A DNA stretch of 19,700 bases from a virus, in UHGV virus genome UHGV-0129547; one strand, written 5' to 3'. Below, one piece after another: positions 1 through 19,608 of the stretch (position 1 is its first letter; each line of letters begins with the position of its first letter). Position numbers and translations under genes: made by a program. The notes beneath the pieces were generated by a model. The model saw only the letters and a list, made by a program, of their open reading frames with translations, was not told the origin of the DNA and made no database searches.

Positions 1-54
1 ACCAGCGACCTGGCGATTATGAGTCGCTCGCTCTCACCACTGAGCTAAAGGGCC
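1..54 (-). tRNA. Partial tRNA with CAU anticodon (Ile2/Met type); 3' part lies beyond the window start
   Basis: Reverse complement of 1-54 reads GGCCCTTTAGCTCAGTGGTGAGAGCGAGCGACTCATAATCGCCAGGTCGCTGG: acceptor 5' half, D-arm (GCTC...GAGC), anticodon loop CTCATAA (anticodon CAT = plus-strand ATG at 19-21) and start of the T-stem. Resembles enterobacterial tRNA-Ile2 (ileX/ileY type) from memory. T-loop and 3' acceptor are not visible. Confidence 0.6.
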
Positions 55-82
55 GAGCCAAAAAATAATAATCAGATGAAAA

Positions 83-796
83 TCAATAATCAAGCCCTTG
101 CCTGGATACATATCTGTCTGGCGGGAAGCCATAATAGCGGTGAAATACAGAAATAAAGTAGGACCTGCTTGAATAACCGCATTTTTCTGCTATAGCCTGT
201 CCATATCCATGCCGGGAACATAACATATTTACAGCAACACGCATCCGCTCTTCCAGCAACAAGCGACTGAACATGCCCCCTTCATTTTTCAGTTTTGTCT
301 TTAACAAACTCTCACTCATATGCAACTGTAGAGCAATCGCACCAAGCGTCCAGCTTGCTGATATATCTGTCTGAATTATCGCCCTGACTTTGGCACTTAT
401 GCTGGATAAACATCCACTTAAAAACAATGACATCCGTTCATCTGTTTCAAACAGAGACAGGCAGGCCATCATAAGAAACATATCCGTGGCCTCTCCGGAA
501 AATCCCTGGCTGGTAATTAAAGCCGCAGCCAACGCAGGATTGTTGGGTTCCAGCAACAGGTAAAGCGGAATGTCAGTCAGACGAGTCCTCGTCAGCTTAT
601 GCTGACTTTCCAGATATTGACTTACGACGGATTCGCTTATATCGACAATTTTAACTTTGCCATAATGCATAAGGAAAAGCTCCCTGATGCATTTGGTGGC
701 CAGAACAACTGAGCCTGGCTTAAGTGACAACGTATCCTTTTCAAGAAAAATATTAATTGGGGAGCAAACCATGGTAACTGAACAGACAACAGCCAT
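83..796 (-). CDS. AraC/XylS-family transcriptional regulator (AppY/EnvY-like)
   Basis: 237-aa ORF; C-terminal AraC-type HTH signature (...IAEKCGYSSRSYFISVFHRYYGFPP...); N-terminus (MAVVCSVTMVCSP...) resembles prophage-borne AppY/EnvY-type regulators from memory. Confidence 0.8.
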   Translation of the reverse strand: MAVVCSVTMVCSPINIFLEKDTLSLKPGSVVLATKCIRELFLMHYGKVKIVDISESVVSQYLESQHKLTRTRLTDIPLYLLLEPNNPALAAALITSQGFSGEATDMFLMMACLSLFETDERMSLFLSGCLSSISAKVRAIIQTDISASWTLGAIALQLHMSESLLKTKLKNEGGMFSRLLLEERMRVAVNMLCSRHGYGQAIAEKCGYSSRSYFISVFHRYYGFPPDRYVSRQGLDY

Positions 797-4900: not shown

Positions 4901-5569
4901 TTATTGCAACAGATTCTGACGGAAATATGGCAACACTCTGCTCCACTTATTATCCTGCCAAGGCTGGAGTTTTACATGTGCCGTTTCTCTGGCAAGGATT
5001 TCGCGCGCCTTATGTAGTATCTGGGGATATTCTTGCCCGATAGAAGTAAAGCGACCAGCTTCGCGGTGCTCCGCAACCTGAAGAAGTGGAGTAACATTCT
5101 GGCAGGCGGTTAACATCACATCCCCTGCTCGCCATAACCAAGCAAGTGTGCAAAGTTCGTTATCAGTGAATTGTTTTATGATTGGGGATTGTTGAACTTC
5201 TCGATCGAGAATATCCAGAACCCAACGGCGGAACTCTTTGGCTACAGGAGTGCGGGCGAACATGGCGATCAAATGGGCTCCGCGGAGAGAGAAAACACGT
5301 ACTTTCTTCTTCAAGTTTCGAGTACTTTTCGAGGTACTCAGATCAAGTACCTCGACATCATTCTCTGAGGTACTGACTTCAAGCACTCTAGTCATACTAC
5401 TGGAAAATTCGTCAGCATATTTGTTGTAAATCATCGTGACTGCGCGACTATTCGAATACTTCAGTGCTCTTGCTAGGTTGGATGAAGTTAGCCATATTCC
5501 GGCAATATTTGCCACTGGCACTAGTGCTTCACCTTGGAAGTTCAGATCTGATGTTGCTACAATACTCAT
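4901..5569 (-). CDS. Antirepressor-like protein (Bro-N/KilA-N-type motif)
   Basis: Segment GAHLIAMFARTPVAKEFRRWVLDIL matches the conserved P-x-AK-x-F-x-x-WV motif of Bro-N/antirepressor domains (compare P22 Ant ...SKLPSAKRFKRWV...). Lies immediately downstream of an Arc-like gene and divergent from a Mnt-like gene. Preferred start is the ATG at 5569 (AAGGA 8 nt upstream); the ORF-track start at 5650 has a weak SD and overlaps the arc-like stop. Confidence 0.6.
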   Translation of the reverse strand: MSIVATSDLNFQGEALVPVANIAGIWLTSSNLARALKYSNSRAVTMIYNKYADEFSSSMTRVLEVSTSENDVEVLDLSTSKSTRNLKKKVRVFSLRGAHLIAMFARTPVAKEFRRWVLDILDREVQQSPIIKQFTDNELCTLAWLWRAGDVMLTACQNVTPLLQVAEHREAGRFTSIGQEYPQILHKAREILARETAHVKLQPWQDNKWSRVLPYFRQNLLQ

Positions 5570-5639
5570 GTCGATATTTCCTTCGCGGTTATTTTCGATA
5601 GAAGCCCCTAAGGTTGCCGCCAGTGGGGCTTCGCTGTTT

Positions 5640-5798
5640 CTAGCGAGCATGTATCCGTGCTCTAAATTTCAATGCCCATACAAGCGCCTGAACAATAGCT
5701 GCGTTCTCAGACATCCCTTCCTCCTGAGCAATTCGCTTGAATTCATCCTTCACTTTTTGCGGATAGCGAAGGGTAATTTTTACCTCTTTCTTTTCCAT
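5640..5798 (-). CDS. Arc-like ribbon-helix-helix repressor (52 aa)
   Basis: From the ATG at 5798 (GAGG 8 nt upstream): MEKKEVKITLRYPQKVKDEFKRIAQEEGMSENAAIVQALVWALKF..., with the RHH pattern of P22 Arc (basic N-terminal beta strand followed by two helices). Confidence 0.7.
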   Translation of the reverse strand: MEKKEVKITLRYPQKVKDEFKRIAQEEGMSENAAIVQALVWALKFRARIHAR

Positions 5799-5810
5799 TG
5801 ACATAACCTC

Positions 5811-5875
5811 ATGAGGCCACAATGACACCATGAGGCCATAATGCCACCATTGAATTGATGTGGCAATATGGCACC
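5811..5875. promoter_or_regulatory. Tandem direct repeats in the arc/mnt divergent intergenic region; putative RHH-repressor operators
   Basis: ATGAGGCCACAATGACACC (5811-5829) and ATGAGGCCATAATGCCACC (5830-5848) are adjacent 19-bp near-identical repeats; a third degenerate copy TGGCAATATGGCACC lies at 5861-5875. They sit between the divergent Arc-like and Mnt-like starts. Confidence 0.4.
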
Positions 5876-5897
5876 ATTCATTTTTTTGGGGGTTCCA

Positions 5898-6215
5898 ATG
5901 GCTGACAAACAAGTAAAAGACTACGATAAGTTTAACCTCCGTTTCCCCGATGGGATGCGTGAAGCTATAGCTGAACGAGCCAAACGAAACGGGCGCTCAA
6001 TGAATTCAGAAATCATTCAAATACTCCAAGATGCCATAGAAGGAAGTTCTGAACTATCTAAACGTTTAAATTTAGTTGGGTTTATTCGAGGTGACAGAGA
6101 GATACGTGACCTGGAAGATAATGCAAGCAAACTTGCGTTGTATATCGATCATAGAACACAAGAGTTTAAACAAATTTTATTGGAAGATTTAAAATTACTC
6201 CTTAATCATGATTAA
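5898..6215 (+). CDS. Mnt-like ribbon-helix-helix repressor
   Basis: From the ATG at 5898: MADKQVKDYDKFNLRFPDGMREAIAERAKRNGRSMNSEIIQILQDAIEG..., strongly resembling P22 Mnt (...FNFRMPMEVREKLKFRAEANGRSMNSELLQIVQDAL...) from memory. Confidence 0.75.
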   Translation: MADKQVKDYDKFNLRFPDGMREAIAERAKRNGRSMNSEIIQILQDAIEGSSELSKRLNLVGFIRGDREIRDLEDNASKLALYIDHRTQEFKQILLEDLKLLLNHD

Positions 6216-6259
6216 TGTTAACATTTTCCCAAAATCCAATTGATAGAGGAGTTATTTAT

Positions 6260-6613
6260 ATGCGTATTAAAATCATGCCTCTCCCAAGTACTATCCAAAT
6301 GGGCCAAAAAAAACGGACAACAAGTGCAGCAGTATCCACAACGTTTTTTGGCCCAAATAGTCTTAAACCACAAGGAGATAGCCTTGAAAATACAGCAAAG
6401 AAAAACTCTTCAATTTTGCGAGAAAAAAACTACAGAAAAATTGCTGAAACACTATATAAAACTGGGGTCATAACTATGGCAACATTTGATAGAGAATGTA
6501 ATTTAGGAGGTAAAGACAGAAAGTACTTGCGACATATTTTTTCCCTACTTTTGTCAGAAAAAATCAAATCAAAACAAATCAGAATAACCCGCAAGAAAAA
6601 ACAGAACAAATAA
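6260..6613 (+). CDS. Hypothetical basic (Lys/Arg-rich) protein, 117 aa
   Basis: ATG at 6260 preceded by GAGGAG with an 8-nt spacer, directly downstream of the mnt-like gene; very AT-rich, with a Lys-rich C-terminus (...IRITRKKKQNK). Could be spurious low-complexity coding. Confidence 0.35.
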   Translation: MRIKIMPLPSTIQMGQKKRTTSAAVSTTFFGPNSLKPQGDSLENTAKKNSSILREKNYRKIAETLYKTGVITMATFDRECNLGGKDRKYLRHIFSLLLSEKIKSKQIRITRKKKQNK

Positions 6614-6692: not shown

Positions 6693-6986
6693 TTATGCTG
6701 TAGTCCTCCCATATACCGCCAACACCCGCTTCATCGCGGCACTCTGGCGACACTCCTTAAAAATCAGATTCGTGCTCACCTTTCCTTCCCGTTCTTCTCT
6801 GGTAGCGAACCGGTAATACACCGTTCGCCAGACCTTACCATCAATGACCAGGATTCCTGCCCGCGCCATTTTAGCCGCAGCCTGATTTATGCTGGTTACT
6901 GTTGCGCCTGTTACCGCGGTAACGTCCTGCGCACAGAAGCTCTTATGCGTCCCCAGGTAATAAATAATTGCCTCTTTGCCCGTCAT
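6693..6986 (-). CDS. ren: Ren-like protein
   Basis: 97-aa ORF MTGKEAIIYYLGTHKSFCAQDVTAVTGATVTSINQAAAKMARAGILVIDGKVWRTVYYRFATREEREGK..., near-identical to lambda Ren as I recall it; located immediately downstream of P with ATGA overlap. Confidence 0.85.
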   Translation of the reverse strand: MTGKEAIIYYLGTHKSFCAQDVTAVTGATVTSINQAAAKMARAGILVIDGKVWRTVYYRFATREEREGKVSTNLIFKECRQSAAMKRVLAVYGRTTA

Positions 6987-7684
6987 ACACTTGCTCCTTT
7001 CAGTCCGAACTTAGCTTTGATTTCTGCGATCTTCGCCAAAGCCTGTGCACGATTTAGAGGTCTACCGCCCATGACAGGAAGTTGTTTTACTGGTTCAGGT
7101 ATAGCCTCACCACGGTTAATTAGCGCGTTCATACAGGACAGTTCATCGGCAGCCTTGCGCCGTAATTCCGCGTCAGTCAACGCATTGGCCCGCATATTCT
7201 GGTACAGGTTGGTAACCAACCAGTAGTGCGCGTTTGATTTCCATGGATAAGACTCTGCATCTGGATACAGGCCACGCTTCCGGCAATACTCGTAAACCAT
7301 ATCAACCAGCTCGCTGGTGTTTGGTAGTCCGGCAATAACGGATGCTTCTTCCCGGCACCAGGCTACAAACTGCCCGGGTGATGGCAGGAATGGTCGATTC
7401 TGCCGACGGGCTACGCGCATTCCTGCGTTAACCTGTTCCATTGTGGTGATCCCGTTTTCCCGGAAAGCCAGAACCCACTGGCGGCGGATTTCGTTCAGTT
7501 CGTTCTGGTCCCGGTTAGCCAGGCTCGCCGGGAAAGTTGCCAGTAACTGGCTGAACACACCATTGATGATCTGCGCTACCTGCTGTACCTGCGGCTTTTC
7601 GTCGTACTGTTCCGGCATGTTGTTGGCGATCCGGCGCATCTGCTCACGGTCAAAGTTAACCATCTGTGCGGCGATGTTTTTCAT
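6983..7684 (-). CDS. P: Replication protein P (DnaB helicase loader)
   Basis: 233-aa ORF MKNIAAQMVNFDREQMRRIANNMPEQYDEKPQVQQVAQIINGVFSQLLATF...AKFGLKGASV, essentially lambda P from memory. Confidence 0.95.
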   Translation of the reverse strand: MKNIAAQMVNFDREQMRRIANNMPEQYDEKPQVQQVAQIINGVFSQLLATFPASLANRDQNELNEIRRQWVLAFRENGITTMEQVNAGMRVARRQNRPFLPSPGQFVAWCREEASVIAGLPNTSELVDMVYEYCRKRGLYPDAESYPWKSNAHYWLVTNLYQNMRANALTDAELRRKAADELSCMNALINRGEAIPEPVKQLPVMGGRPLNRAQALAKIAEIKAKFGLKGASV

Positions 7685-8610
7685 AAATCCACCCCGTAAA
7701 TCCAGTCAGTGTTTGTCAGGTCGAGTTTTGGTTTTCCGGCTGTCACGCCAGCCTGTTGTTTGTTACGATTGATTTCGAGCTGGGTCCACTTGTCGCGAAG
7801 TTTAGCCGGGCTCAGCACGTTACCGGACCAGAAGTTGTCCTGGCATGCCCAGCGGAACAGCACGCACATGTCGCGGTGGTTACGTCCGTCACGTTCACGC
7901 ATCAGGCGGATATCGTTAGCCCACCCTGCAAAATTCGGTTTTCTGGCTGAGGGCGCGATGGTCTTCACCATGTCAAACATCCACTCTGCGGCGGTCAGGT
8001 CTTCTGCTGTCCCCCACTTGCTGCCGCTCTGAATTGCAGCATCCAGTTTCTCCAAAGGAAAGTCGTTTTCTGGCTGGTCAGAGGATTCGCCAGAATTCTC
8101 GGACGAAAAAGGTTTTATATTGTCTTTTGTTAGTTTGTCTTTTGTGTTTACCTGATTCGGGTAAACGCCTTTACCTGATTTGGGTAAACTTTTCTTACCT
8201 GATTCAGGTAAATTTACCTCTTTCAGGTAAACTTTATTTTTCTTACCTGATTCGGGTAATGTTGACCATTCACTGACCACATTATTAATGCCGATATTCC
8301 GCCCACTCTGAATAAAAATCCCACGCTTTACCAGAACGCTTTTTGCAGCAGAACACTTGTGCGGCAATATCCCGGTTAACTCGGAAAGTTGCTCGTTGCT
8401 CACCCAATCCAGTTTTTTATTAAAGCCATATGTTTTGCGCATGACAGCCAGGAAGACCAGAAGCTGGTGCTGTGTTAATCCGGCCAGCATTACAGCTTCC
8501 AGCAACTCATTTGCAATGCGCGTATAACCATCATCGAGATCTGCCACGCGCGGCTCCTTTTGTGCCACATCCGGCACTGGAAAATTGAATATCTCAGCAG
8601 TGTTTGCCAT
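7681..8610 (-). CDS. Replication initiator O-like protein
   Basis: From the ATG at 8610 (GGGAGG 4 nt upstream): MANTAEIFNFPVP...; the central region is encoded by the iteron repeats and the C-terminal domain (...WANDIRLMRERDGRNHRDMCVLFRWACQDNFW...) is lambda-O-like. Overlaps the P start. Confidence 0.85.
   Translation of the reverse strand: MANTAEIFNFPVPDVAQKEPRVADLDDGYTRIANELLEAVMLAGLTQHQLLVFLAVMRKTYGFNKKLDWVSNEQLSELTGILPHKCSAAKSVLVKRGIFIQSGRNIGINNVVSEWSTLPESGKKNKVYLKEVNLPESGKKSLPKSGKGVYPNQVNTKDKLTKDNIKPFSSENSGESSDQPENDFPLEKLDAAIQSGSKWGTAEDLTAAEWMFDMVKTIAPSARKPNFAGWANDIRLMRERDGRNHRDMCVLFRWACQDNFWSGNVLSPAKLRDKWTQLEINRNKQQAGVTAGKPKLDLTNTDWIYGVDL
8121..8261. repeat. Origin of replication: five ~19-bp iterons plus adjacent short direct repeats inside the O gene
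   Basis: Iterons TTACCTGATTCGGGTAAAC (8148-8166), TTACCTGATTTGGGTAAAC (8171-8189), TTACCTGATTCAGGTAAAT (8196-8214), TTACCTCTTTCAGGTAAAC (8215-8233), TTACCTGATTCGGGTAATG (8243-8261), each with internal dyad symmetry (TTACC...GGTAA). They are flanked by TGTCTTTTGT repeated at 8121-8130 and 8136-8145. This parallels the lambda ori arrangement (iterons then AT-rich segment within O). Confidence 0.8.
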
Positions 8611-8696
8611 AATTCCTCCCGCAATGAGTGTGTTACGATTTGCACCTGAAAGTCGGTTCTGTTCGCGCAGACCGGCTTTCGCCATTTCTGAACCTG

Positions 8697-9236
8697 TCAT
8701 ATTGCCCCCAGCATGGTGGTGACCATCGCCATCAGTGGACCAGCCAAATCCGGGTCCACACGAAACATCGACACAATGCCTTCACTCATCTCCTTCAGTT
8801 TCTGGTGGCGTGGTGCGTTGAGAATGACAGCCTGTTTTGCCTCACTGAGTTCCTTTTCCATTTCAGCCAGCCGAGCCATGAAGCTATCCTGCTCAACCAG
8901 GTGGCCGCGATATTTCAGCGGTAGTACTGCCAGAATTGCTGGAGTCAGTTCACGCACGTTATTTCGGTATTTTTCAGAATCGAATTTGTTATCGAGAAAG
9001 CGGAACAGCTTCTGGCGTGCACGACTGACATCATCAGAAAAATCGATAGTGCCGCCGCCCTGTGCTCGATACTCATTCACAATGAGTGCGGCAACGACAT
9101 CCTGATTATCTACAGCCGACCAGGCGCGGATGGCATCACGGATTTTTTCGTGGCCTGGCACCTGTTTTATTTGAGAACGATTTATCACCGCAGTCGGGAT
9201 AAATCCGCTAGTCTGTTGGTATGTAAGTGGTTGCAT
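8697..9236 (-). CDS. YdaT-like protein (Rac-type, cII position)
   Basis: Contains ...RAQGGGTIDF... and ...LTPAILAVLPLKYRGHL..., resembling Rac prophage YdaT (QGGG and IPAILAILP motifs) from memory; located downstream of the Cro-like ydaS-type gene. Start at 9236 or 9242. Confidence 0.65.
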   Translation of the reverse strand: MQPLTYQQTSGFIPTAVINRSQIKQVPGHEKIRDAIRAWSAVDNQDVVAALIVNEYRAQGGGTIDFSDDVSRARQKLFRFLDNKFDSEKYRNNVRELTPAILAVLPLKYRGHLVEQDSFMARLAEMEKELSEAKQAVILNAPRHQKLKEMSEGIVSMFRVDPDLAGPLMAMVTTMLGAI

Positions 9237-9266
9237 AGTCATTGCCTTATCAGTTAACGCCGCAGT

Positions 9267-9494
9267 TTAGGCGGCAGAATTACTCGCGTTAAACAATGGT
9301 GCGAGGTCGGGACGAATATCTGCTGGTTTAATCTTTCCACCAGTGGCTGAGACAATTTTCATTACATAGCGGGCATCAATTCCGCCACCGTGTAGCCAAC
9401 GCCAAACAGTGGGTTGGGCTACACCGCATAGATCTGCCAGTCGTTTTTGACTACCTGTAATACTGATTGCGAGTTGAATGGTTTGATTTGTCAT
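9267..9494 (-). CDS. Cro/YdaS-like HTH protein (75 aa)
   Basis: From the ATG at 9494 (AGGAA 7 nt upstream): MTNQTIQLAISITGSQKRLADLCGVAQPTVWRWLHGG..., an HTH (Q-x-T-V-x-x-W) of the YdaS/Cro-like family; divergent from the CI-type repressor. Confidence 0.75.
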   Translation of the reverse strand: MTNQTIQLAISITGSQKRLADLCGVAQPTVWRWLHGGGIDARYVMKIVSATGGKIKPADIRPDLAPLFNASNSAA

Positions 9495-9525
9495 TATCAA
9501 TTCCTATTGGTATTGCAATGAATGA

Positions 9526-9554
9526 ATAATAGCAATGCGTATTAATCCAAGCAA
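9526..9554 (-). promoter_or_regulatory. Putative PR-like sigma70 promoter (minus strand) with overlapping operator words
   Basis: Minus strand reads TTGCTT (9554-9549), 17-nt spacer, TATTAT (9531-9526), about 30 nt upstream of the ydaS-like ATG. The word AATAGCAAT / CAATAGCAA recurs at 9528-9536 and 9552-9560, and the palindrome ATTGCAAT lies at 9512-9519. Confidence 0.4.
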
Positions 9555-9568
9555 TAGCAAAACGTGTT

Positions 9569-9595
9569 TTGACCATCAATACGCAAGCGTATAAA
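9569..9595 (+). promoter_or_regulatory. Putative PRM-like promoter for the repressor gene (near-leaderless mRNA)
   Basis: TTGACC (9569-9574), 15-nt spacer, TATAAA (9590-9595), ending about 10 nt upstream of the repressor ATG at 9605. The spacer contains the inverted repeat ATACGC-AA-GCGTAT (9580-9593). Confidence 0.35.
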
Positions 9596-9604
9596 TTAAA
9601 ACTT

Positions 9605-10297
9605 ATGAAAAAAGAAACTCTTGCTGATCGCTTAAACCTAGCGATGGAACAATCTGGAATGTCTCAAGGCGCTCTTGCAAAGGCGTCTGGCGTAGCTCAA
9701 CCCACAATCTGGAGACTGACAAGCGGCAACGCGCGCGGCTCAACAAAAATTGTTGAAATAGCTAATGCATTGGGTGTTCGAACAGAATGGCTCTCATCAG
9801 GCATAGGCCCGATGAGAAATGACGGTCAACAATCAGGGAAGCCTGCTGTCAGCCATTCCAAATACTTCAAAATTGACGTTCTTGATATAGAAGTCAGTGC
9901 CGGGCCGGGTGTAATCAACCGTGAGTTTGTAGAAGTTCTACGCTCGGTTGAGTACTCGTTTGACGATGCTCGTCACATGTTCGATGGCAGGAAGGCGGAA
10001 AATATCCGCATCATTAACGTGCGTGGTGACAGCATGTCAGGAACGATCGAACCAGGTGATCTGCTGTTCGTTGATATCACGGTTAAATCTTTCGACGGTG
10101 ATGGTATCTATGCGTTTCTGTACGACGACACAGCCCATGTAAAGCGTCTGCAAATGATGAAGGATAAGCTGCTGGTTATCTCTGATAACAAGAGCTACTC
10201 ACCGTGGGACCCGATCGAGAAAGACGAGATGAACCGGGTGTTCATCTTCGGTAAGGTTATTGGGAGCATGCCGCAGACGTATAGGAAGCATGGGTAG
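9605..10297 (+). CDS. CI-type phage repressor (N-terminal HTH, C-terminal S24/LexA-like peptidase domain)
   Basis: From the ATG at 9605: MKKETLADRLNLAMEQSGMSQGALAKASGVAQPTIWRL... (HTH) followed by ...NVRGDSMSGTIEPGDLLFVD...AHVKRLQ... (S24 Ser/Lys autocleavage module). The ORF-track start at 9569 is a TTG inside the putative -35. Confidence 0.85.
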   Translation: MKKETLADRLNLAMEQSGMSQGALAKASGVAQPTIWRLTSGNARGSTKIVEIANALGVRTEWLSSGIGPMRNDGQQSGKPAVSHSKYFKIDVLDIEVSAGPGVINREFVEVLRSVEYSFDDARHMFDGRKAENIRIINVRGDSMSGTIEPGDLLFVDITVKSFDGDGIYAFLYDDTAHVKRLQMMKDKLLVISDNKSYSPWDPIEKDEMNRVFIFGKVIGSMPQTYRKHG

Positions 10298-10343
10298 CGG
10301 ATTAGCTAATCATTATGATGTTGTTCAAATTTAAGAGGTCCGC

Positions 10344-11192
10344 ATGTCTTCGATTTGGGGAAAAAAGTTGATGACGAAAGAACAAGAGTCAAACACTGAT
10401 GAAGTGAAACCAGAGCAAGGAAGTTTGTTTGAATTAGAATTTCATGAATATACACCTTCAAGCTTAGGCACAGCACACCTTTCTGGTTTCGCTATTGCCA
10501 CTGATGAAATGGAATATGCAGTTAAAAGCATGCGCTCCACCCCACCTTTTCCTGTACAAAACCCAACTCAAGTACCGGCAGCGGAATGGTTTTGCACAAA
10601 TTTAGCTGAAAAATGCGGCATCGCTACACCTGTGTGCAAAATTCTCAAGTGTATTGCTAATGGGGAGTATGTTTTTGGCTCTCGCATAGAGTTTTCAGCC
10701 TGGAAATCTGGTCTCAATAGTCCTCAATGGATAAATTTGCTCTCAAATGCTTCTGAATCCTTAAAGAAGCAACTCTGGGCAATTTATGCATTTGATCAGT
10801 TTGTATATAACATTGACAGACACCTCAACAACTACTTATACATGGAAAACACCCGAGGCAATGTTATAGTTAAAACATTCGATTTTAGTCTAAGCTCTTT
10901 TGTTATAGGCTGGCCACGAAATACCCCTCATATACTACCAACAGACTCCAGTACAACAACAAACTGGACGATTGCTAAACAATTCATTGGCGACACTGAT
11001 GATCTGAGAAAGTGCGCATTATCTGTCCTTGACAAAATTGAAAAAATTGGAGTTGAGGCTATATCTGATATACTTAACTCTATGCCTGAAGCATGGATGC
11101 CACCAATGCATAAGGAGTATTTTTTGAAGTGGTGGGACAGCGAGGAGCGAATCGATAGGCTAAATGCCATAAGACTGGAGATAACATCTTGA
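10344..11192 (+). CDS. Kinase-fold protein with HipA/PI3K-like catalytic loop (282 aa); candidate effector of a lysogen-expressed two-gene system
   Basis: ATG at 10344 with AGAGG 6 nt upstream, 46 nt after the repressor stop. Residues 158-163 DRHLNN (10815-10832) match the DxHxxN / DRHxxN catalytic loop of HipA-like and PI3/4-kinase-like folds; FDFS at residues 179-182 resembles the Mg-binding DFG-like/YDLVS motif that follows it in HipA. AT-rich coding sequence. Much shorter than canonical HipA. Confidence 0.6.
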   Translation: MSSIWGKKLMTKEQESNTDEVKPEQGSLFELEFHEYTPSSLGTAHLSGFAIATDEMEYAVKSMRSTPPFPVQNPTQVPAAEWFCTNLAEKCGIATPVCKILKCIANGEYVFGSRIEFSAWKSGLNSPQWINLLSNASESLKKQLWAIYAFDQFVYNIDRHLNNYLYMENTRGNVIVKTFDFSLSSFVIGWPRNTPHILPTDSSTTTNWTIAKQFIGDTDDLRKCALSVLDKIEKIGVEAISDILNSMPEAWMPPMHKEYFLKWWDSEERIDRLNAIRLEITS

Positions 11193-11995
11193 AAACTTTC
11201 AAATACAGCTTAATCAGAGTTACACCGAACTTAGAGAAAGGTGAAACGATTAACGTTGGTTTGATCGTTTACCATGACTCTGACATAGACGTACGTATGC
11301 TCAATTCAGTTTCAAAACTTAAAGCGATTGACAAAGATCTTACCTTAGATTACTTAGAGGATCTTTCGACCTCGCTTTTTGATTTGTCACAAAAAATCAA
11401 CAATGCTGAACTTCTTCCTTGTCTTTTTAAGGGAGCATTATCGTTATCGTCATTTGGCATGTTCACTCTTCAAGCCAACGAAGATTACGAAGCTAAAGTT
11501 ACTGATCTAATGAATCGGTTAGTAAACCCACAAAAACAGCCACATAAACACTTGAAAAAAAAGGTTTTTTCTGAATTAAAATCCACCTTTATACAACATG
11601 GAATTTTCAGTAAGTATTTTGAAGATCTTTCCCAACATAAAATCGTAGCTAATTATCCAATTAGTAATGAAGAAGGGTTAGTTGCAGATTTTTTGTTAAA
11701 AAATGGCAAATACCATCTTACAGAAACATTAGATTTTCGTTCTGAAAATATAAAAAAACAAATGGGTGAAGCTGCGATAAGTGTTTTAACAATTACTAAA
11801 GCCTACGAATTATACAATTCAAATATTGATTCATTTGTAATTTTTGCCGCTGAAACGACAGCACAAGAAAAGTCAGCAAAACAGCAGCTAAATCTACTGG
11901 AAAAACACGCTGATAATCTTATCAACGCATATAGCAAAGAAGACATGCGTTCATATTACGAAAAGATGCTGAATGCTGCCTCTATGTTACAGTAG
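11189..11995 (+). CDS. DUF3037-like protein (268 aa), partner of the kinase-fold gene
   Basis: TTG start at 11189 overlapping the upstream TGA (T-TGA coupling), GGAG 10 nt upstream. N-terminus ...YSLIRVTPNLEKGETINVGLIVY... matches my recollection of the DUF3037 N-terminal signature (R-x-V-P-x-x-x-x-G-E-x-I-N-V-G). AT-rich. Followed by a terminator. Confidence 0.6.
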   Translation: MKTFKYSLIRVTPNLEKGETINVGLIVYHDSDIDVRMLNSVSKLKAIDKDLTLDYLEDLSTSLFDLSQKINNAELLPCLFKGALSLSSFGMFTLQANEDYEAKVTDLMNRLVNPQKQPHKHLKKKVFSELKSTFIQHGIFSKYFEDLSQHKIVANYPISNEEGLVADFLLKNGKYHLTETLDFRSENIKKQMGEAAISVLTITKAYELYNSNIDSFVIFAAETTAQEKSAKQQLNLLEKHADNLINAYSKEDMRSYYEKMLNAASMLQ

Positions 11996-12021
11996 AAAAA
12001 ACTGACTAATTTAATTAATAA

Positions 12022-12048
12022 CCCGGCCACCGTGCCGGGTTTTCTTTT
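12022..12048 (+). terminator. Rho-independent terminator ending the repressor-cargo operon
   Basis: Stem CCCGGC(12022-12027)/GCCGGG(12034-12039), 6-nt loop, followed by TTTTCTTTT (12040-12048). Confidence 0.6.
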
Positions 12049-12189
12049 GTCCCCTCCCCTCATCACACACCGCTCAAAAAACCACCACATCCCTGCTTCA
12101 GTTATCGCTATGCGATGCAAGTCACAAAATTAATTCTTTTTGCTATCAAACATTTAATATCAAAACACATCAGTCAATAGCAATAAGTA

Positions 12190-12218
12190 TTGATATCACC
12201 AATAGCAATAGCTATTAT
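12190..12218 (+). promoter_or_regulatory. Putative PL-like sigma70 promoter with embedded palindromic operator
   Basis: TTGATA (12190-12195), 17-nt spacer, TATTAT (12213-12218). The spacer and -10 contain the palindrome AATAGC-AATA-GCTATT (12201-12216). The 11-mer CAATAGCAATA occurs at 12175-12185 and 12200-12210, the same word family as in the OR-like region. Confidence 0.45.
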
Positions 12219-12495
12219 CACCATATCGCAACAACACAACGATACGGCAACCACCTGATTCACCGTTGCGATGACCGCTTAGATCCGCAGTTTGAATTTC
12301 AGCAGGCTTCGGGGAGTGCGAGGGGTGAAACGGACGCGTGAACGTCGGTGTGACCAGCTGAAATTAACTCAACATTTCATACCTCAGTCGCTTCAACGAG
12401 GCGGCTTAGTTATGACAACCGGCGGCCATCCACCGCCTGAATACGCGCAGAAGTCTCTATATGTTCAGCAGCCCAGCTTACGGGCAGGAGTTTTT

Positions 12496-12702
12496 ATGGT
12501 TCATCAACATTACGGAACACAGACCGTTAATCGCGGCGCGGTCATGCCAGGAATGCTGGTCAAACACAAAGATGGTACCTGGAGTGCATCAGCTAATTTA
12601 CGCGGGCGGCTTTATCTGCATCGCGGCATCGAGCGCACTTATACCCGTGATTTGCTCGTAGAAGTTTTTCTCGACGGACGCGGTAACGGCCTGAATCACT
12701 AA
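12496..12702 (+). CDS. Kil-like small protein (68 aa), putative host cell-division inhibitor
   Basis: ATG at 12496 preceded by GGCAGGAG with a 5-nt spacer; protein MVHQHYGTQTVNRGAVMPGMLVKHKDGTWSASANLRGRLYLHRGIERTYTRDLLVEVFLDGRGNGLNH. First gene of the PL-like transcript, upstream of gam as kil is in lambda; family assignment from memory is uncertain. Alternative start ATG at 12412. Confidence 0.5.
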   Translation: MVHQHYGTQTVNRGAVMPGMLVKHKDGTWSASANLRGRLYLHRGIERTYTRDLLVEVFLDGRGNGLNH

Positions 12703-12777
12703 CCCCCCTTTCCTGTTTTCCTAATCAGCCCGGCATTTCGCGGGCGATATTTTCACAGCTATTTCAGGAGTTCAGCC

Positions 12778-13074
12778 ATGAACGCTTATTACATTCAGGA
12801 TCGTCTTGAGGCTCAGAGCTGGGCGCGTCACTACCAGCAGATCGCCCGTGAAGAGAAAGAGGCAGAACTGGCAGACGATATGGAAAAAGGCCTGCCCCAG
12901 CACCTGTTTGAATCGCTATGCATCGATCATTTGCAACGCCACGGGGCCAGCAAAAAAGCCATTACCCGTGCGTTTGATGACGATGTTGAGTTTCAGGAGC
13001 GCATGGCAGAACACATCCGGTACATGGTTGAAACCATTGCTCACCATCAGGTTGATATTGATTCAGAGGTATAA
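12778..13074 (+). CDS. gam: Gam (RecBCD inhibitor), short form
   Basis: 98-aa [63 protein letters not shown]..., near-identical to lambda GamS from memory; AGGAG-type SD upstream. Confidence 0.9.
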
Positions 13075-18321: not shown

Positions 18322-19608
18322 ATGAGTAACGCATCATACCCGACAGGCGTTGAAAACCATGGAGGATCACTCCGTATATGGTTTCACTATAATGGCAAAC
18401 GTGTCAGAGAAAACCTCGGTGTTCCTGACACAGCCAAAAACCGGAAGATCGCTGGTGAACTTCGCACTTCCGTTTGTTTTGCAATCAGAATGGGGAGTTT
18501 CGACTACGCCGCGCAGTTCCCTAATTCCCCTAACCTGAAACACTTTGGTCTGGGAAAAAGAGAGATAACCGTTAAGGCACTTTCGGAAAAATGGTTGGAC
18601 CTTAAGAAAATTGAGATTTGTGCGAATGCACTTAATCGTTACCAGTCAGTAATTAAAAACATGTTGCCTATGTTGGGTGAGAAAAAACTGGTTTCATCCA
18701 TAACAAAAGAGGATTTACTTTTCGCAAGGAGAGATTTGTTGACCGGTTACCAAAAGCTTTCTAATGGAAAGATTTCTTCCATAAAAGGGCGCTCAGTGGT
18801 CACAGTAAACTACTATATGACAACCATAGCTGGAATGTTTCAATTTGCAACAGATAATGGTTATACCTCAGGAAACCCATTTAACGGTCTGGCACCCTTA
18901 AAAAAGTCCAAGGTAAAACCAGATCCTCTCACCCGTGACGAATTTATTCGTTTTATTGAGGCTTGCCGTCATCAACAAACAAAAAACCTGTGGATTCTCG
19001 CTGTATACACGGGTATTCGTCACGGGGAGTTGGTATCGCTGGCATGGGAAGATATAGATCTTAAAGCAAGGACTATAACCATCCGTAGGAATTATACAAA
19101 ACTTGGCGAATTCACTCCACCAAAAACCGATGCTGGCACCGGAAGGACAATTCATCTGGTTCAACCAGCTATTGATGCTCTTAAAAGTCAGGCGGAAATG
19201 ACCATGCTTGGAAAGCAACATTCTGTAGAGGTAAAGCAGAGGGAATATGGGAGAAGTACTGTGCATAAATGCACTTTTGTTTTTAGTCCTCAGGTAATAA
19301 AACAGCGGCAGTTTTCCGGACCGCACTATAAGGTTGACTCCATCAGGGAGTCATGGACAAGTATCTTAAAACGCGCAGGTCTGAGACACAGAAAATCGTA
19401 CCAATCCAGGCATACTTATGCATGCTGGTCACTTGCCGCTGGAGCTAATCCTAGTTTTATCGCAAGCCAGATGGGCCACACAAACGCACAAATGGTATTC
19501 AATGTTTACGGAGCATGGATGAAAGACAACAATCACGAACAGATAGAACTCCTTAACAAAAGACTATCTGAAAGTGTCCCATGTATGCCCCATAAGAAAG
19601 CTGGGTAA
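18322..19608 (+). CDS. Tyrosine integrase (phage integrase family)
   Basis: 428-aa ORF with GGGAGG SD; C-terminal catalytic region with R...HxxR...Y-type tyrosine-recombinase signature (...RHGELVSLAWEDIDL..., ...SRHTYACWSLAAGANPSFIASQMGHTNAQMVFNVYGAWM...). Confidence 0.9.
   Translation: MSNASYPTGVENHGGSLRIWFHYNGKRVRENLGVPDTAKNRKIAGELRTSVCFAIRMGSFDYAAQFPNSPNLKHFGLGKREITVKALSEKWLDLKKIEICANALNRYQSVIKNMLPMLGEKKLVSSITKEDLLFARRDLLTGYQKLSNGKISSIKGRSVVTVNYYMTTIAGMFQFATDNGYTSGNPFNGLAPLKKSKVKPDPLTRDEFIRFIEACRHQQTKNLWILAVYTGIRHGELVSLAWEDIDLKARTITIRRNYTKLGEFTPPKTDAGTGRTIHLVQPAIDALKSQAEMTMLGKQHSVEVKQREYGRSTVHKCTFVFSPQVIKQRQFSGPHYKVDSIRESWTSILKRAGLRHRKSYQSRHTYACWSLAAGANPSFIASQMGHTNAQMVFNVYGAWMKDNNHEQIELLNKRLSESVPCMPHKKAG

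What the first reader, a model, noticed from the sequence alone, without database searches (positions are those of the whole stretch)
10298..12048. Two-gene operon fused to the CI repressor transcript at the rexAB-equivalent locus: kinase-fold protein plus DUF3037-like partner
Seen in sequence: two AT-rich ORFs (10344-11192, 11189-11995) sit on the repressor strand 46 nt after the CI stop, are translationally coupled (TTG start inside T-TGA) and end at a strong terminator (12022-12048), so they should be expressed in the lysogen with the repressor. The first carries DRHLNN and a downstream FDFS, matching the catalytic loop and Mg-binding motif of HipA/PI3K-like kinases, but at 282 aa it is far shorter than HipA. 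The second begins with a motif I recall as DUF3037. Established knowledge: the slot between the repressor and PL/OL is where lambda carries rexAB and is a recurrent site for lysogen-expressed exclusion or abortive-infection cargo; ren, whose lambda function is protection from Rex exclusion, is retained although rex is absent. Inference: a kinase-based abortive-infection or toxin-antitoxin-like defence module. I know of no characterised defence system with this composition, but I cannot exclude that one exists.
Basis: partly seen in the sequence, partly recalled or inferred. Interest (0 to 1): 0.9.

Follow-up and report, generated by a model that had tools for sequence, protein, structure and literature searches.

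The report
Prophage kinase-toxin defence pair after repressor
A lambda-like prophage carries, directly behind its repressor gene, a small HipA-type kinase gene and an overlapping DUF3037 partner gene; this two-gene design has recently been shown to work as a toxin-antitoxin-style anti-phage defence (HipAD / DS-6 / PDC-M66), so the finding is real but is a divergent member of a known kind.

Summary
Two overlapping genes (10344-11192 and 11189-11995) follow the cI-like repressor on the same strand. No terminator lies between them and cI. A strong terminator ends them at 12020-12049, just before OL/PL, which is the rexAB slot.

ORF-A is a short HipA-family kinase. It passes the Pfam HipA_2 cut-off, its AF2 model matches CtkA, HipA and HipT, and K61, D158, H160, N163 and D180 are invariant. 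ORF-B has an N-terminal DUF3037 domain and a C-terminal domain predicted to have a restriction-endonuclease-like fold.

The pairing held in 13 of 13 species-level loci. In 8 of those a cI-like repressor lies directly upstream.

The novelty claim fails. HipA-like kinase plus DUF3037 is PADLOC candidate PDC-M66 and the validated system DS-6/HipAD, where kinase D139A abolishes defence. In a third example, deleting the DUF3037 gene is toxic. Phage PhiR5_1 carries HipAD in the same slot.

The window's pair is a remote relative of these. The kinase matches DS-6A at hhalign 96.8%, about 27% identity. Only the DUF3037 half of the partner aligns. This version is untested.

Verdict: a divergent member of a known defence type. 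Interest is moderate to low.

The parts
9500..9604 (.). OR-like operator cluster (CAATAGCAAT-type half-sites) with a PRM-like promoter (TTGACC-17-TAAATT, 9569-9597) that ends just before the likely cI ATG at 9605
   Evidence: Operator-motif matches cluster at 9500-9561 and again at 12175-12217. Assigning it as PRM, and a leaderless cI mRNA, are inference by analogy with lambda.
9569..10297 (+). cI-like repressor (HTH_3 plus Peptidase_S24); the likely true start is ATG 9605
   Evidence: Pfam Peptidase_S24 1.5e-18 and HTH_3 1.5e-6. About 98% DNA identity to the annotated cI of phage PhiR30_1. The RefSeq homologue is 230 aa.
10298..10343 (+). cI to ORF-A spacer with Shine-Dalgarno AAGAGG (10333-10338); no terminator and no strong promoter
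   Evidence: Sequence, scan. Its fold is no more stable than shuffles (z -0.14).
10344..11192 (+). ORF-A: short HipA-family (HipA_2-type) Ser/Thr kinase, the presumed toxin/effector. Alternative start at Met10 (10371). Key codons: K61 10524-10526; catalytic loop D158-R-H160-L-N-N163 10815-10832; F-D180-F-S 10878-10889
   Evidence: Pfam HipA_2 28.7 bits against a cut-off of 27. phrog_3162 1.7e-66. Invariant residues. AF2 model pLDDT 86.9. Foldseek hits: CtkA 6e-8, HipA 1e-6, HipT 6e-6. hhalign against DS-6A/PhiR5_1 HipA gives 96.8% probability, with D158 aligned to D139.
11189..11995 (+). ORF-B: DUF3037-domain partner, the presumed antitoxin/regulator, translationally coupled through a TTG start inside T-TGA. 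N-terminal DUF3037 region is about residues 2-139 (11192-11605). C-terminal restriction-endonuclease-like domain is about residues 150-268 (11636-11992), with conserved D167, K171, H176, E179 and D182
12020..12049 (+). Intrinsic terminator that closes the cI/ORF-A/ORF-B transcription unit
   Evidence: -14.2 kcal/mol, z -3.0, followed by a T tract.
12130..12218 (+). OL-like operators and a PL-like promoter (TTGATA-17-TATTAT, 12190-12218) that reads into kil-gam-bet-exo
   Evidence: Downstream genes are identified.

Best explanation
The two genes form a HipAD-like (PDC-M66-type) kinase/DUF3037 toxin-antitoxin-style anti-phage cassette. A lambdoid prophage carries it as a moron in the rexAB-equivalent slot.

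Shown by the sequence:
- The pair lies on the repressor strand between cI and OL/PL.
- No terminator lies upstream of it, and a strong one lies downstream.
- The two reading frames overlap.

Inferred:
- Both genes are transcribed with cI from PRM, so they are made in every lysogen, and their translation is coupled.
- ORF-A is an active short HipA-family kinase. K61 would bind ATP, D158 would be the catalytic base, and N163 and D180 would bind Mg2+.
- ORF-B holds the kinase inactive through its DUF3037 half.
- Infection by a heterologous phage releases or activates the kinase.
- The kinase then phosphorylates an essential host factor. By analogy with HipA and HipT, this is most plausibly a component of translation such as an aminoacyl-tRNA synthetase. 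The cell and the infection are arrested (abortive infection), which protects the lysogen population.
- The restriction-endonuclease-like C-terminal domain of ORF-B most likely binds nucleic acid. It could serve as the sensor or tether, or for autoregulation. Whether it cleaves is unknown.
For: Anatomy.

Kinase identity:
- Pfam HipA_2 is above its gathering score.
- Foldseek probability is 1.00 to CtkA, HipA and HipT.
- K61, D158, R159, H160, N163, D180 and S182 are invariant in 26 homologues down to 32% identity.
- The catalytic loop aligns in register with HipA D309, H311 and N314.

Homology to a validated system:
- hhalign of the kinase family against DS-6A (= PhiR5_1 HipA) gives 96.8% probability, E 2e-10, over 172 columns. 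D158 falls on D139, and D139A abolishes defence.
- The ORF-B family against the HipD family gives 96% probability, E 4e-9, over the DUF3037 half.
- PADLOC PDC-M66B 2.2e-8 and PDC-M66A 1.6e-3 for the window's proteins. PhiR5_1 HipA/HipD score 6e-15 and 4e-16 on the same models.

Function in homologues:
- DS-6 gave about 10^3.9-fold protection against phage Bas1.
- In the Sda1 locus, deleting the kinase abolished defence and deleting the DUF3037 gene was toxic.

Obligate pairing: the kinase lies immediately upstream of the DUF3037 gene in 13 of 13 species loci and in the loci.

Slot:
- A cI-like repressor lies directly upstream in 8 of 13 loci, including Pseudomonas. One further locus has an XRE HTH protein upstream, and one follows a type I HsdR.
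- The same position is seen in Proteus and Yokenella.
- PhiR5_1 carries HipAD in this slot, and other phages with a closely related cI (about 90-98% DNA identity) carry other cargo there.

Low GC fits horizontal acquisition.
Against: - No experiment exists on this subfamily. Its proteins were absent from the DefensePredictor supplements that are held (some of which are truncated) and from the phage collection.
- Similarity to the validated HipAD is remote: BLASTP gives 21% identity and E 0.015 for the kinase.
- The C-terminal halves of the partner proteins show no detectable similarity, so regulation or sensing could differ.
- PDC-M66A matches only weakly (1.6e-3), and PDC-M03A, from a different candidate system, scores better.
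- Co-transcription with cI is inferred from the absence of signals, not measured.
- The kinase target, the trigger and an abortive outcome are unknown even for HipAD; the authors only hypothesise them.
- About 3 of the 13 loci have no recognisable mobile-element or defence context.
Confidence: 0.72

Rival explanations
1. It is a plain addiction or stabilisation (or persistence) module. In this reading it is a HipA-type toxin-antitoxin pair whose role is to stabilise the prophage or to promote dormancy of the lysogen, and it has no meaningful anti-phage activity.
For: - It has the kinase-toxin plus neutralising-partner logic.
- HipA is the classic persistence toxin (established knowledge; also cited).
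- Some homologues sit in plain chromosomal contexts, such as next to recBCD in Gallaecimonas or beside a CsrA-like gene.
Against: - Both experimentally tested homologous pairs gave phage protection that depended on the kinase.
- The pair recurs in the lysogen-expressed immunity slot, where exclusion cargo accumulates, and next to a type I R-M gene.
- An integrated prophage has little need for post-segregational killing.
Confidence: 0.12
2. The roles are reversed or shared. ORF-B's restriction-endonuclease-like domain would be an active nuclease and the real effector, cutting phage or host nucleic acid. The kinase would act as its sensor or switch, for example by phosphorylating ORF-B or a phage protein, rather than as a growth-arresting toxin.
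For: - D167, K171, H176, E179 and D182 are invariant or nearly so on the two central strands.
- The full-length two-domain architecture is conserved in 208 representative clusters at E<=1e-30.
Against: - No canonical (D/E)xK lysine follows E179; position i+2 is hydrophobic.
- Inactive nuclease-like domains such as ERCC1 and FAAP24 are also among the hits.
- In a homologous system, deleting the DUF3037 gene was toxic and deleting the kinase abolished defence, which points to the kinase as toxin.
- DS-6 defence needs the kinase catalytic Asp.
Confidence: 0.1
3. It is a phage-beneficial regulator rather than a defence. The kinase would modify host or prophage proteins to tune lysogeny or induction, for example through signalling onto repressor, RecA or translation, with ORF-B as a DNA-binding co-regulator.
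For: - The pair appears operonic with cI, with gaps of only 2-75 nt in several species.
- AlphaFold3 suggested that DS-6B may bind DNA.
Against: - The same cassette occurs outside immunity regions and outside prophages.
- It defends when cloned without any phage context.
- It is swapped for unrelated cargo behind near-identical cI genes.
Confidence: 0.06

Closest known systems
HipAD (= DS-6 of DefensePredictor; carried by Escherichia phage PhiR5_1, PV340545.1; PADLOC candidate PDC-M66)
   Same: - Two genes in the same order with a 4-nt overlap: a short HipA_2-type kinase, then a DUF3037 protein of about 270 aa.
- In PhiR5_1 the pair sits in the same slot, directly after cI and before kil-gam-bet-exo.
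- The kinase catalytic Asp is equivalent: D158 here, D139 in DS-6A.
- The DUF3037 halves are homologous.
- The PDC-M66B model hits ORF-B.
   Different: - The relationship is very remote. BLASTP identity is 21% for the kinase; hhalign gives 27% over 172 columns.
- ORF-A barely passes the HipA_2 cut-off (28.7 bits), whereas DS-6A scores 258 bits.
- The C-terminal half of ORF-B has no detectable similarity to that of HipD. It is predicted to have a restriction-endonuclease-like fold. HipD's C-terminus was only tentatively called DUF1829 (HHpred 0.78), and I could not detect DUF1829 in either family.
- ORF-B starts with TTG.
- This subfamily has not been tested experimentally.
HipA-like/DUF3037 pair next to Retron-Sda1 (PMC12548924)
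   Same: It has the same two-domain-family composition and PADLOC calls it PDC-M66. Genetics show the kinase is required for defence and that loss of the DUF3037 gene is toxic. This is the behaviour proposed here.
   Different: Its context differs: it is embedded in a type III retron locus. The C-terminus of its DUF3037 protein resembles the retron's DNA-binding protein. I had no sequence for it and could not compare it directly.
HipBA and HipBST type II toxin-antitoxin systems
   Same: - The kinase fold is the same, with Foldseek hits to HipA (3dnt, 3tpv) and HipT (7vkb, 8ezs, 7ab4).
- The DxHxxN catalytic loop aligns in register with HipA D309, H311 and N314.
- Like HipT and CtkA, the kinase is short and lacks the HipA N-terminal subdomain.
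   Different: - There is no HipB-type HTH antitoxin and no HipS.
- The toxin gene comes first.
- The profile search against PDB sequences is not significant (E about 1).
- HipA_C scores below its cut-off.
- The partner is a DUF3037 protein.
Lambda rexAB, and Stk of phage 933W (positional and functional analogues; from my own knowledge of the literature, not retrieved here)
   Same: These are lysogen-expressed exclusion cargo placed between cI and OL/PL and co-transcribed with the repressor. Stk is also a kinase that aborts infection by a heterologous phage (HK97).
   Different: There is no sequence relationship. Neither ORF has a RexA, RexB or Pkinase hit in Pfam. RexAB is a sensor plus a membrane ion-channel-type effector, and Stk is a eukaryote-like kinase that acts alone.

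Membership tests
HipAD / DS-6 / PDC-M66 (HipA-like kinase plus DUF3037 defence pair) | Short HipA_2-type kinase with an intact catalytic Asp, Asn and Mg-binding Asp | tested here: met
   Pfam HipA_2 28.7 bits against a cut-off of 27. D158, H160, N163, D180 and K61 are invariant. The fold matches HipA, HipT and CtkA.
HipAD / DS-6 / PDC-M66 (HipA-like kinase plus DUF3037 defence pair) | DUF3037 protein encoded immediately downstream on the same strand, overlapping the kinase gene | tested here: met
   Pfam DUF3037 1.6e-9. The overlap is 4 nt. The pairing is conserved in 13 of 13 loci.
HipAD / DS-6 / PDC-M66 (HipA-like kinase plus DUF3037 defence pair) | Kinase homologous to DS-6A, with the residue equivalent to D139 conserved | tested here: met
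   hhalign 96.8% probability, E 2.2e-10, 172 columns, with D158 aligned to D139. The relationship is remote: BLASTP E is 0.015.
HipAD / DS-6 / PDC-M66 (HipA-like kinase plus DUF3037 defence pair) | Both PADLOC PDC-M66 models match | tested here: inconclusive
   PDC-M66B scores 2.2e-8 over residues 1-190. PDC-M66A scores only 1.6e-3, and PDC-M03A scores better at 1e-6. PhiR5_1 HipAD scores 6e-15 and 4e-16 on the PDC-M66 models. PADLOC's own system-calling thresholds were not available.
HipAD / DS-6 / PDC-M66 (HipA-like kinase plus DUF3037 defence pair) | Partner protein homologous to HipD over its full length, including the C-terminal (DUF1829-like) domain | tested here: not met
   Only residues 2-139 align. 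hhalign restricted to the C-terminal halves gives probability 0.7%. An HMM of the ORF-B family matches HipD-family proteins only at their residues 7-155. No DUF1829 hit was found in either family.
HipAD / DS-6 / PDC-M66 (HipA-like kinase plus DUF3037 defence pair) | Kinase toxicity neutralised by the partner; kinase-dependent anti-phage protection | not testable with these tools
   This is known only for homologues.
HipBA type II toxin-antitoxin | Long HipA (about 440 aa, with N-terminal domain plus HipA_C) and an upstream HipB HTH antitoxin | tested here: not met
   ORF-A is 282 aa. HipA_C scores 25 bits, below the cut-off of 30.5, and no HipA N-terminal domain hit was found. hhalign against E. 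coli HipA gives 5% probability. The upstream gene is the phage cI, and the partner lies downstream and is a DUF3037 protein.
Lambda RexAB exclusion system | RexA and RexB proteins | tested here: not met
   Pfam, NCBIfam, PHROGs and PADLOC give no Rex hit for either ORF. Only the genomic position is shared.
PD-(D/E)xK nuclease superfamily (C-terminal domain of ORF-B) | alpha-beta-beta-beta-alpha-beta core with a D...(D/E)xK catalytic triad | tested here: inconclusive

The most novel reading that the evidence does not exclude
This subfamily would be a mechanistically distinct version of the kinase/DUF3037 design. The partner's restriction-endonuclease-like C-terminal domain would directly sense invading phage DNA or an ends/structure signal, or would itself cleave nucleic acid. 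Kinase activation would then be coupled to nucleic-acid recognition rather than to antitoxin turnover. That would make it a kinase-nuclease two-component immune sensor expressed from the prophage repressor transcript.
Probability: 0.15. Interest if true: 0.6.

Novelty: new member of a known kind. Interest (0 to 1): 0.33.

Why it matters
The finding adds a well-defined, divergent branch to the recently validated HipA-kinase/DUF3037 defence type. The ORF-B profile finds 762 representative protein clusters at E<=1e-3.

It also shows that this branch repeatedly occupies the repressor-linked rexAB slot of lambdoid prophages, from Enterobacterales to Pseudomonas. This supports the view that the cI-to-PL interval is a general hotspot for lysogen-expressed immunity.

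The predicted nuclease-like domain on the "antitoxin" gives a concrete hypothesis for how such kinase systems sense infection. That question is still open even for HipAD. It does not reveal a new kind of system.

Tried and rejected
1. tblastn of the kinase against 50,697 phage records found nothing at E<=1e-3. This subfamily is therefore absent from the sequenced-phage collection, even though PHROGs has families for both proteins.
2. A profile search of the kinase family against PDB sequences was not significant (E about 1). Only fold comparison links it to HipA.
3. DUF1829, reported for DS-6B, was not detectable by HMMER in either partner family.
4. hhalign and HMM comparisons of the C-terminal halves of ORF-B and HipD found nothing.
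5. The primary HipAD paper (Brenes & Laub 2025) is not in the library. The PADLOC candidate paper contains no text on these models. What I say about HipAD therefore comes from DefensePredictor and the retron paper.
6. The window's RefSeq accessions (WP_224142735, WP_000846934) were not found in the held DefensePredictor supplements, some of which are truncated.
7. P0311, a 541-aa kinase-DUF3037 "fusion", was considered as evidence for a functional link. I set it aside because its linker looks like an out-of-frame translation, so it is probably a frameshift artefact.
8. The Rfam scan found no RNA family in the region. The antisense ORFs 10306-10476, 10928-11170 and 11956-12120 have no support and were dropped.
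9. Rex homology was rejected.
Full report
**1. Observation**

The window is the immunity and early region of a lambdoid prophage.
- On the minus strand lie Q (2100-2486), a NinB-like gene, an antirepressor, Ren (6693-6986), P (6983-7684), O (7681-8700), a YdaT-like gene in the cII position (8697-9242) and a YdaS/Cro-like gene (9267-9500).
- On the plus strand lie a cI-like repressor (9569/9605-10297; HTH_3 plus Peptidase_S24), then the two ORFs of the finding, then Kil, Gam, Bet, Exo and further genes up to the integrase (18322-19608).

- The gap after the cI stop is 46 nt, and AAGAGG lies 5 nt upstream of the ATG.
- The two ORFs overlap by 4 nt (T-TGA), with GGAG upstream.
- No terminator-like site separates cI from ORF-A.
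- The unit ends at an 8-bp GC-rich hairpin followed by a T tract at 12020-12049 (-14.2 kcal/mol, z -3.0).

Operator-like CAATAGCAAT repeats cluster only at 9500-9561 and 12175-12217. The second cluster overlaps the best promoter match in the region, TTGATA-17-TATTAT at 12190-12218. The cassette therefore lies between cI and OL/PL, the position rexAB occupies in lambda.

GC content is 40% for ORF-A and 34% for ORF-B, against 46% for the window.

There are three small corrections.
- The invariant Asn is N163, not N162.
- RefSeq starts the kinase at Met10 (10371). The first 28 residues are unconserved and modelled as disordered.
- cI probably starts at ATG 9605.

**2. What the proteins are**

*ORF-A.* It passes the Pfam HipA_2 gathering score only narrowly (28.7 bits against 27). 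HipA_C is below its cut-off.
- Homologues occur in Enterobacterales, Vibrio, Pseudomonas and other groups, down to 32% identity.
- In 26 of them, K61, E81, D151, N156, D158, R159, H160, N163, D180 and S182 are invariant.
- An AF2 model (pLDDT 86.9) matches CtkA (E 6e-8), HipA (1e-6), Legionella and E. coli HipT, and PI4KII.
- A profile search against PDB sequences is not significant.
- The statistically weak hhalign to E. coli HipA still puts D158, H160 and N163 on D309, H311 and N314. D180 falls within one residue of D332.

*ORF-B.* Pfam finds DUF3037 at residues 6-64. Profile comparison extends that domain to about residue 139.
- The AF2 model (pLDDT 86.4, pTM 0.54) looks like two domains.
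- The conserved block A166-D167-F-L-L-K171-N-G-x-Y-H176-L-T-E179-x-x-D182 sits on the two central strands.
- There is no canonical lysine two residues after E179. Catalytic competence is therefore open.
- A profile of this family finds 762 representative clusters at E<=1e-3. Of these, 208 reach E<=1e-30, and nearly all of the 150 listed match over their full length.

**3. Conservation of the pair and its context**

In one genome per species, 13 loci encode an ORF-B relative. All 13 have an ORF-A-family kinase immediately upstream on the same strand, abutting or overlapping it. The same arrangement holds in loci from Gallaecimonas, Vibrio, Proteus, Yokenella and a metagenome.

The contexts of the 13 loci are as follows.
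- In 8, a cI-like repressor lies directly upstream, at gaps of 2-280 nt. These include two Pseudomonas species.
- In 1, an XRE HTH protein lies upstream and an integrase is nearby.
- In 1, the pair directly follows a type I restriction HsdR gene.
- In 3, the context is uninformative.

In Proteus the N gene follows the pair. In Vibrio the pair is inside a prophage but behind the replication genes.

Within E. coli, 24 of 5,426 complete genomes carry the whole cassette at 99.9% identity. It is annotated there as "hypothetical protein" plus "DUF3037 domain-containing protein".

Phages with near-identical cI genes carry unrelated cargo in this slot. The slot behaves as a hotspot.

**4. Comparison with what is known**

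The literature search changes the novelty assessment.
- DefensePredictor (PMC13092281) validated DS-6. This is a HipA-family kinase plus a DUF3037 (and tentatively DUF1829) protein.
- The authors renamed it HipAD and credit its independent discovery to Brenes & Laub 2025.
- The D139A kinase mutant loses defence. The authors hypothesise a toxin-antitoxin, abortive mechanism.
- The retron study (PMC12548924) found that DUF3037 genes are strongly associated with HipA-like kinases and that PADLOC calls this pair PDC-M66.
- In its example, deleting the kinase abolished defence and deleting the DUF3037 gene was toxic.
- Phage PhiR5_1 is annotated with "HipA toxin / HipD antitoxin" directly after cI. 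Over the stretches I compared, those proteins have the DS-6 sequences.

How close is the window's pair to these systems?
- By BLASTP it is barely detectable: 21% identity with E 0.015 for the kinase, and 22 residues for the partner.
- By profiles the kinases are homologous: 96.8% probability, E 2e-10, with D158 aligned to D139.
- The N-terminal DUF3037 halves are also homologous: 96% probability, E 4e-9.
- The C-terminal halves show no similarity by hhalign or HMM.
- The PADLOC models behave accordingly. PDC-M66B scores 2.2e-8 and PDC-M66A only 1.6e-3. PhiR5_1 HipAD scores 6e-15 and 4e-16 on the same models.

I therefore file the pair as a divergent member of the HipA-kinase/DUF3037 defence type. 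The one tested-and-failed feature is full-length homology of the partner. I could not model HipD, because no structure jobs remained. Whether its C-terminus shares the nuclease-like fold is unknown.

**5. Mechanism**

Shown:
- the gene order, the overlap and the position of the pair;
- the kinase fold and the intact catalytic set;
- the DUF3037 domain;
- the obligate pairing;
- the recurrence behind repressors.

Inferred from homologues:
- the kinase is the toxin or effector;
- the DUF3037 protein neutralises it;
- together they protect against phages.

Inferred from anatomy:
- the pair is co-transcribed with cI in the lysogen;
- translation is coupled, giving roughly stoichiometric synthesis. 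With the toxin gene first and a TTG start for the partner, this fits a stable inhibited complex better than a labile-antitoxin model.

Speculative:
- the target is a translation factor, as for HipA and HipT;
- the nuclease-like domain is the sensor or DNA tether.

The rivals are a pure addiction or persistence module, a nuclease effector with a kinase switch, and a lysogeny regulator. Each is less well supported; the details are in the rival explanations.

**6. Verdict**

The structural and functional reading is largely right. The claim of an uncharacterised composition is out of date. This is a new, divergent member of a known kind, untested in this form. Its moderately interesting twist is the predicted nuclease-like C-terminal domain of the partner.

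Noticed in passing
window 5868-6613 (+), next to 4901-5650 (-): An Arc-like ribbon-helix-helix ORF (5868-6215; Pfam Arc 6e-20, also FitA-like antitoxin RHH) abuts a 132-aa ORF (6215-6613) that has no Pfam hit. The two lie divergent from a Bro-N/P22_AR_C antirepressor. This looks like a P22 immI-type arc/ant module, or possibly a second small toxin-antitoxin-like moron between ren and the nin region.
   Followed up: partly
window 11189-11191; L013 9892-9894: ORF-B starts with TTG in the window and in the 99.9% identical E. coli chromosomal copy. All six homologous loci I examined, including PhiR5_1 hipD, use ATG in the same overlap context. This could lower partner synthesis relative to the kinase.
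   Followed up: partly
window 12218-12778: No N-like antiterminator gene was recognised between the PL-like promoter and kil/gam. The 136-aa ORF at 12292-12702 matches the Kil family only over residues 60-136, so its real start is probably internal. The related Proteus prophages do carry an N_peptide gene after the cassette.
   Followed up: no
window 1-796 (-): A partial tRNA gene (1-54, cut by the window edge; Rfam 35.3 bits) is followed by an AraC-family HTH regulator ORF (83-796). Both lie beyond the Q antiterminator gene (2100-2486) on its strand, in what should be the late region. The regulator is possibly a lysogenic-conversion regulator.
   Followed up: no
L002 3428-4782 (phage PhiR30_1); L013 3636-5138: Behind a cI that is 98% identical to the window's, PhiR30_1 carries a different overlapping pair of hypothetical genes (141 and 310 aa) in the same slot. 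The E. coli prophage that carries the window's cassette also has a DUF4041 protein inserted next to ren. Both are candidates for other prophage defence cargo.
   Followed up: no
P0311 (541 aa, from the representative search): This is a single ORF that joins an ORF-A-like kinase (YFVK, FGSR, DRHFGN and FDFS motifs) to a full ORF-B-like protein through a low-complexity linker. It is probably a frameshift or assembly artefact in a high-GC genome, but it could be a genuine fusion.
   Followed up: partly
L020 4773-8831: In an uncultured proteobacterium the kinase/DUF3037 pair directly follows a type I restriction HsdR gene (ResIII plus EcoEI_R_C), and a PD-(D/E)XK transposase-family gene follows the pair. 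This is a defence-island-like or embedded context.
   Followed up: partly
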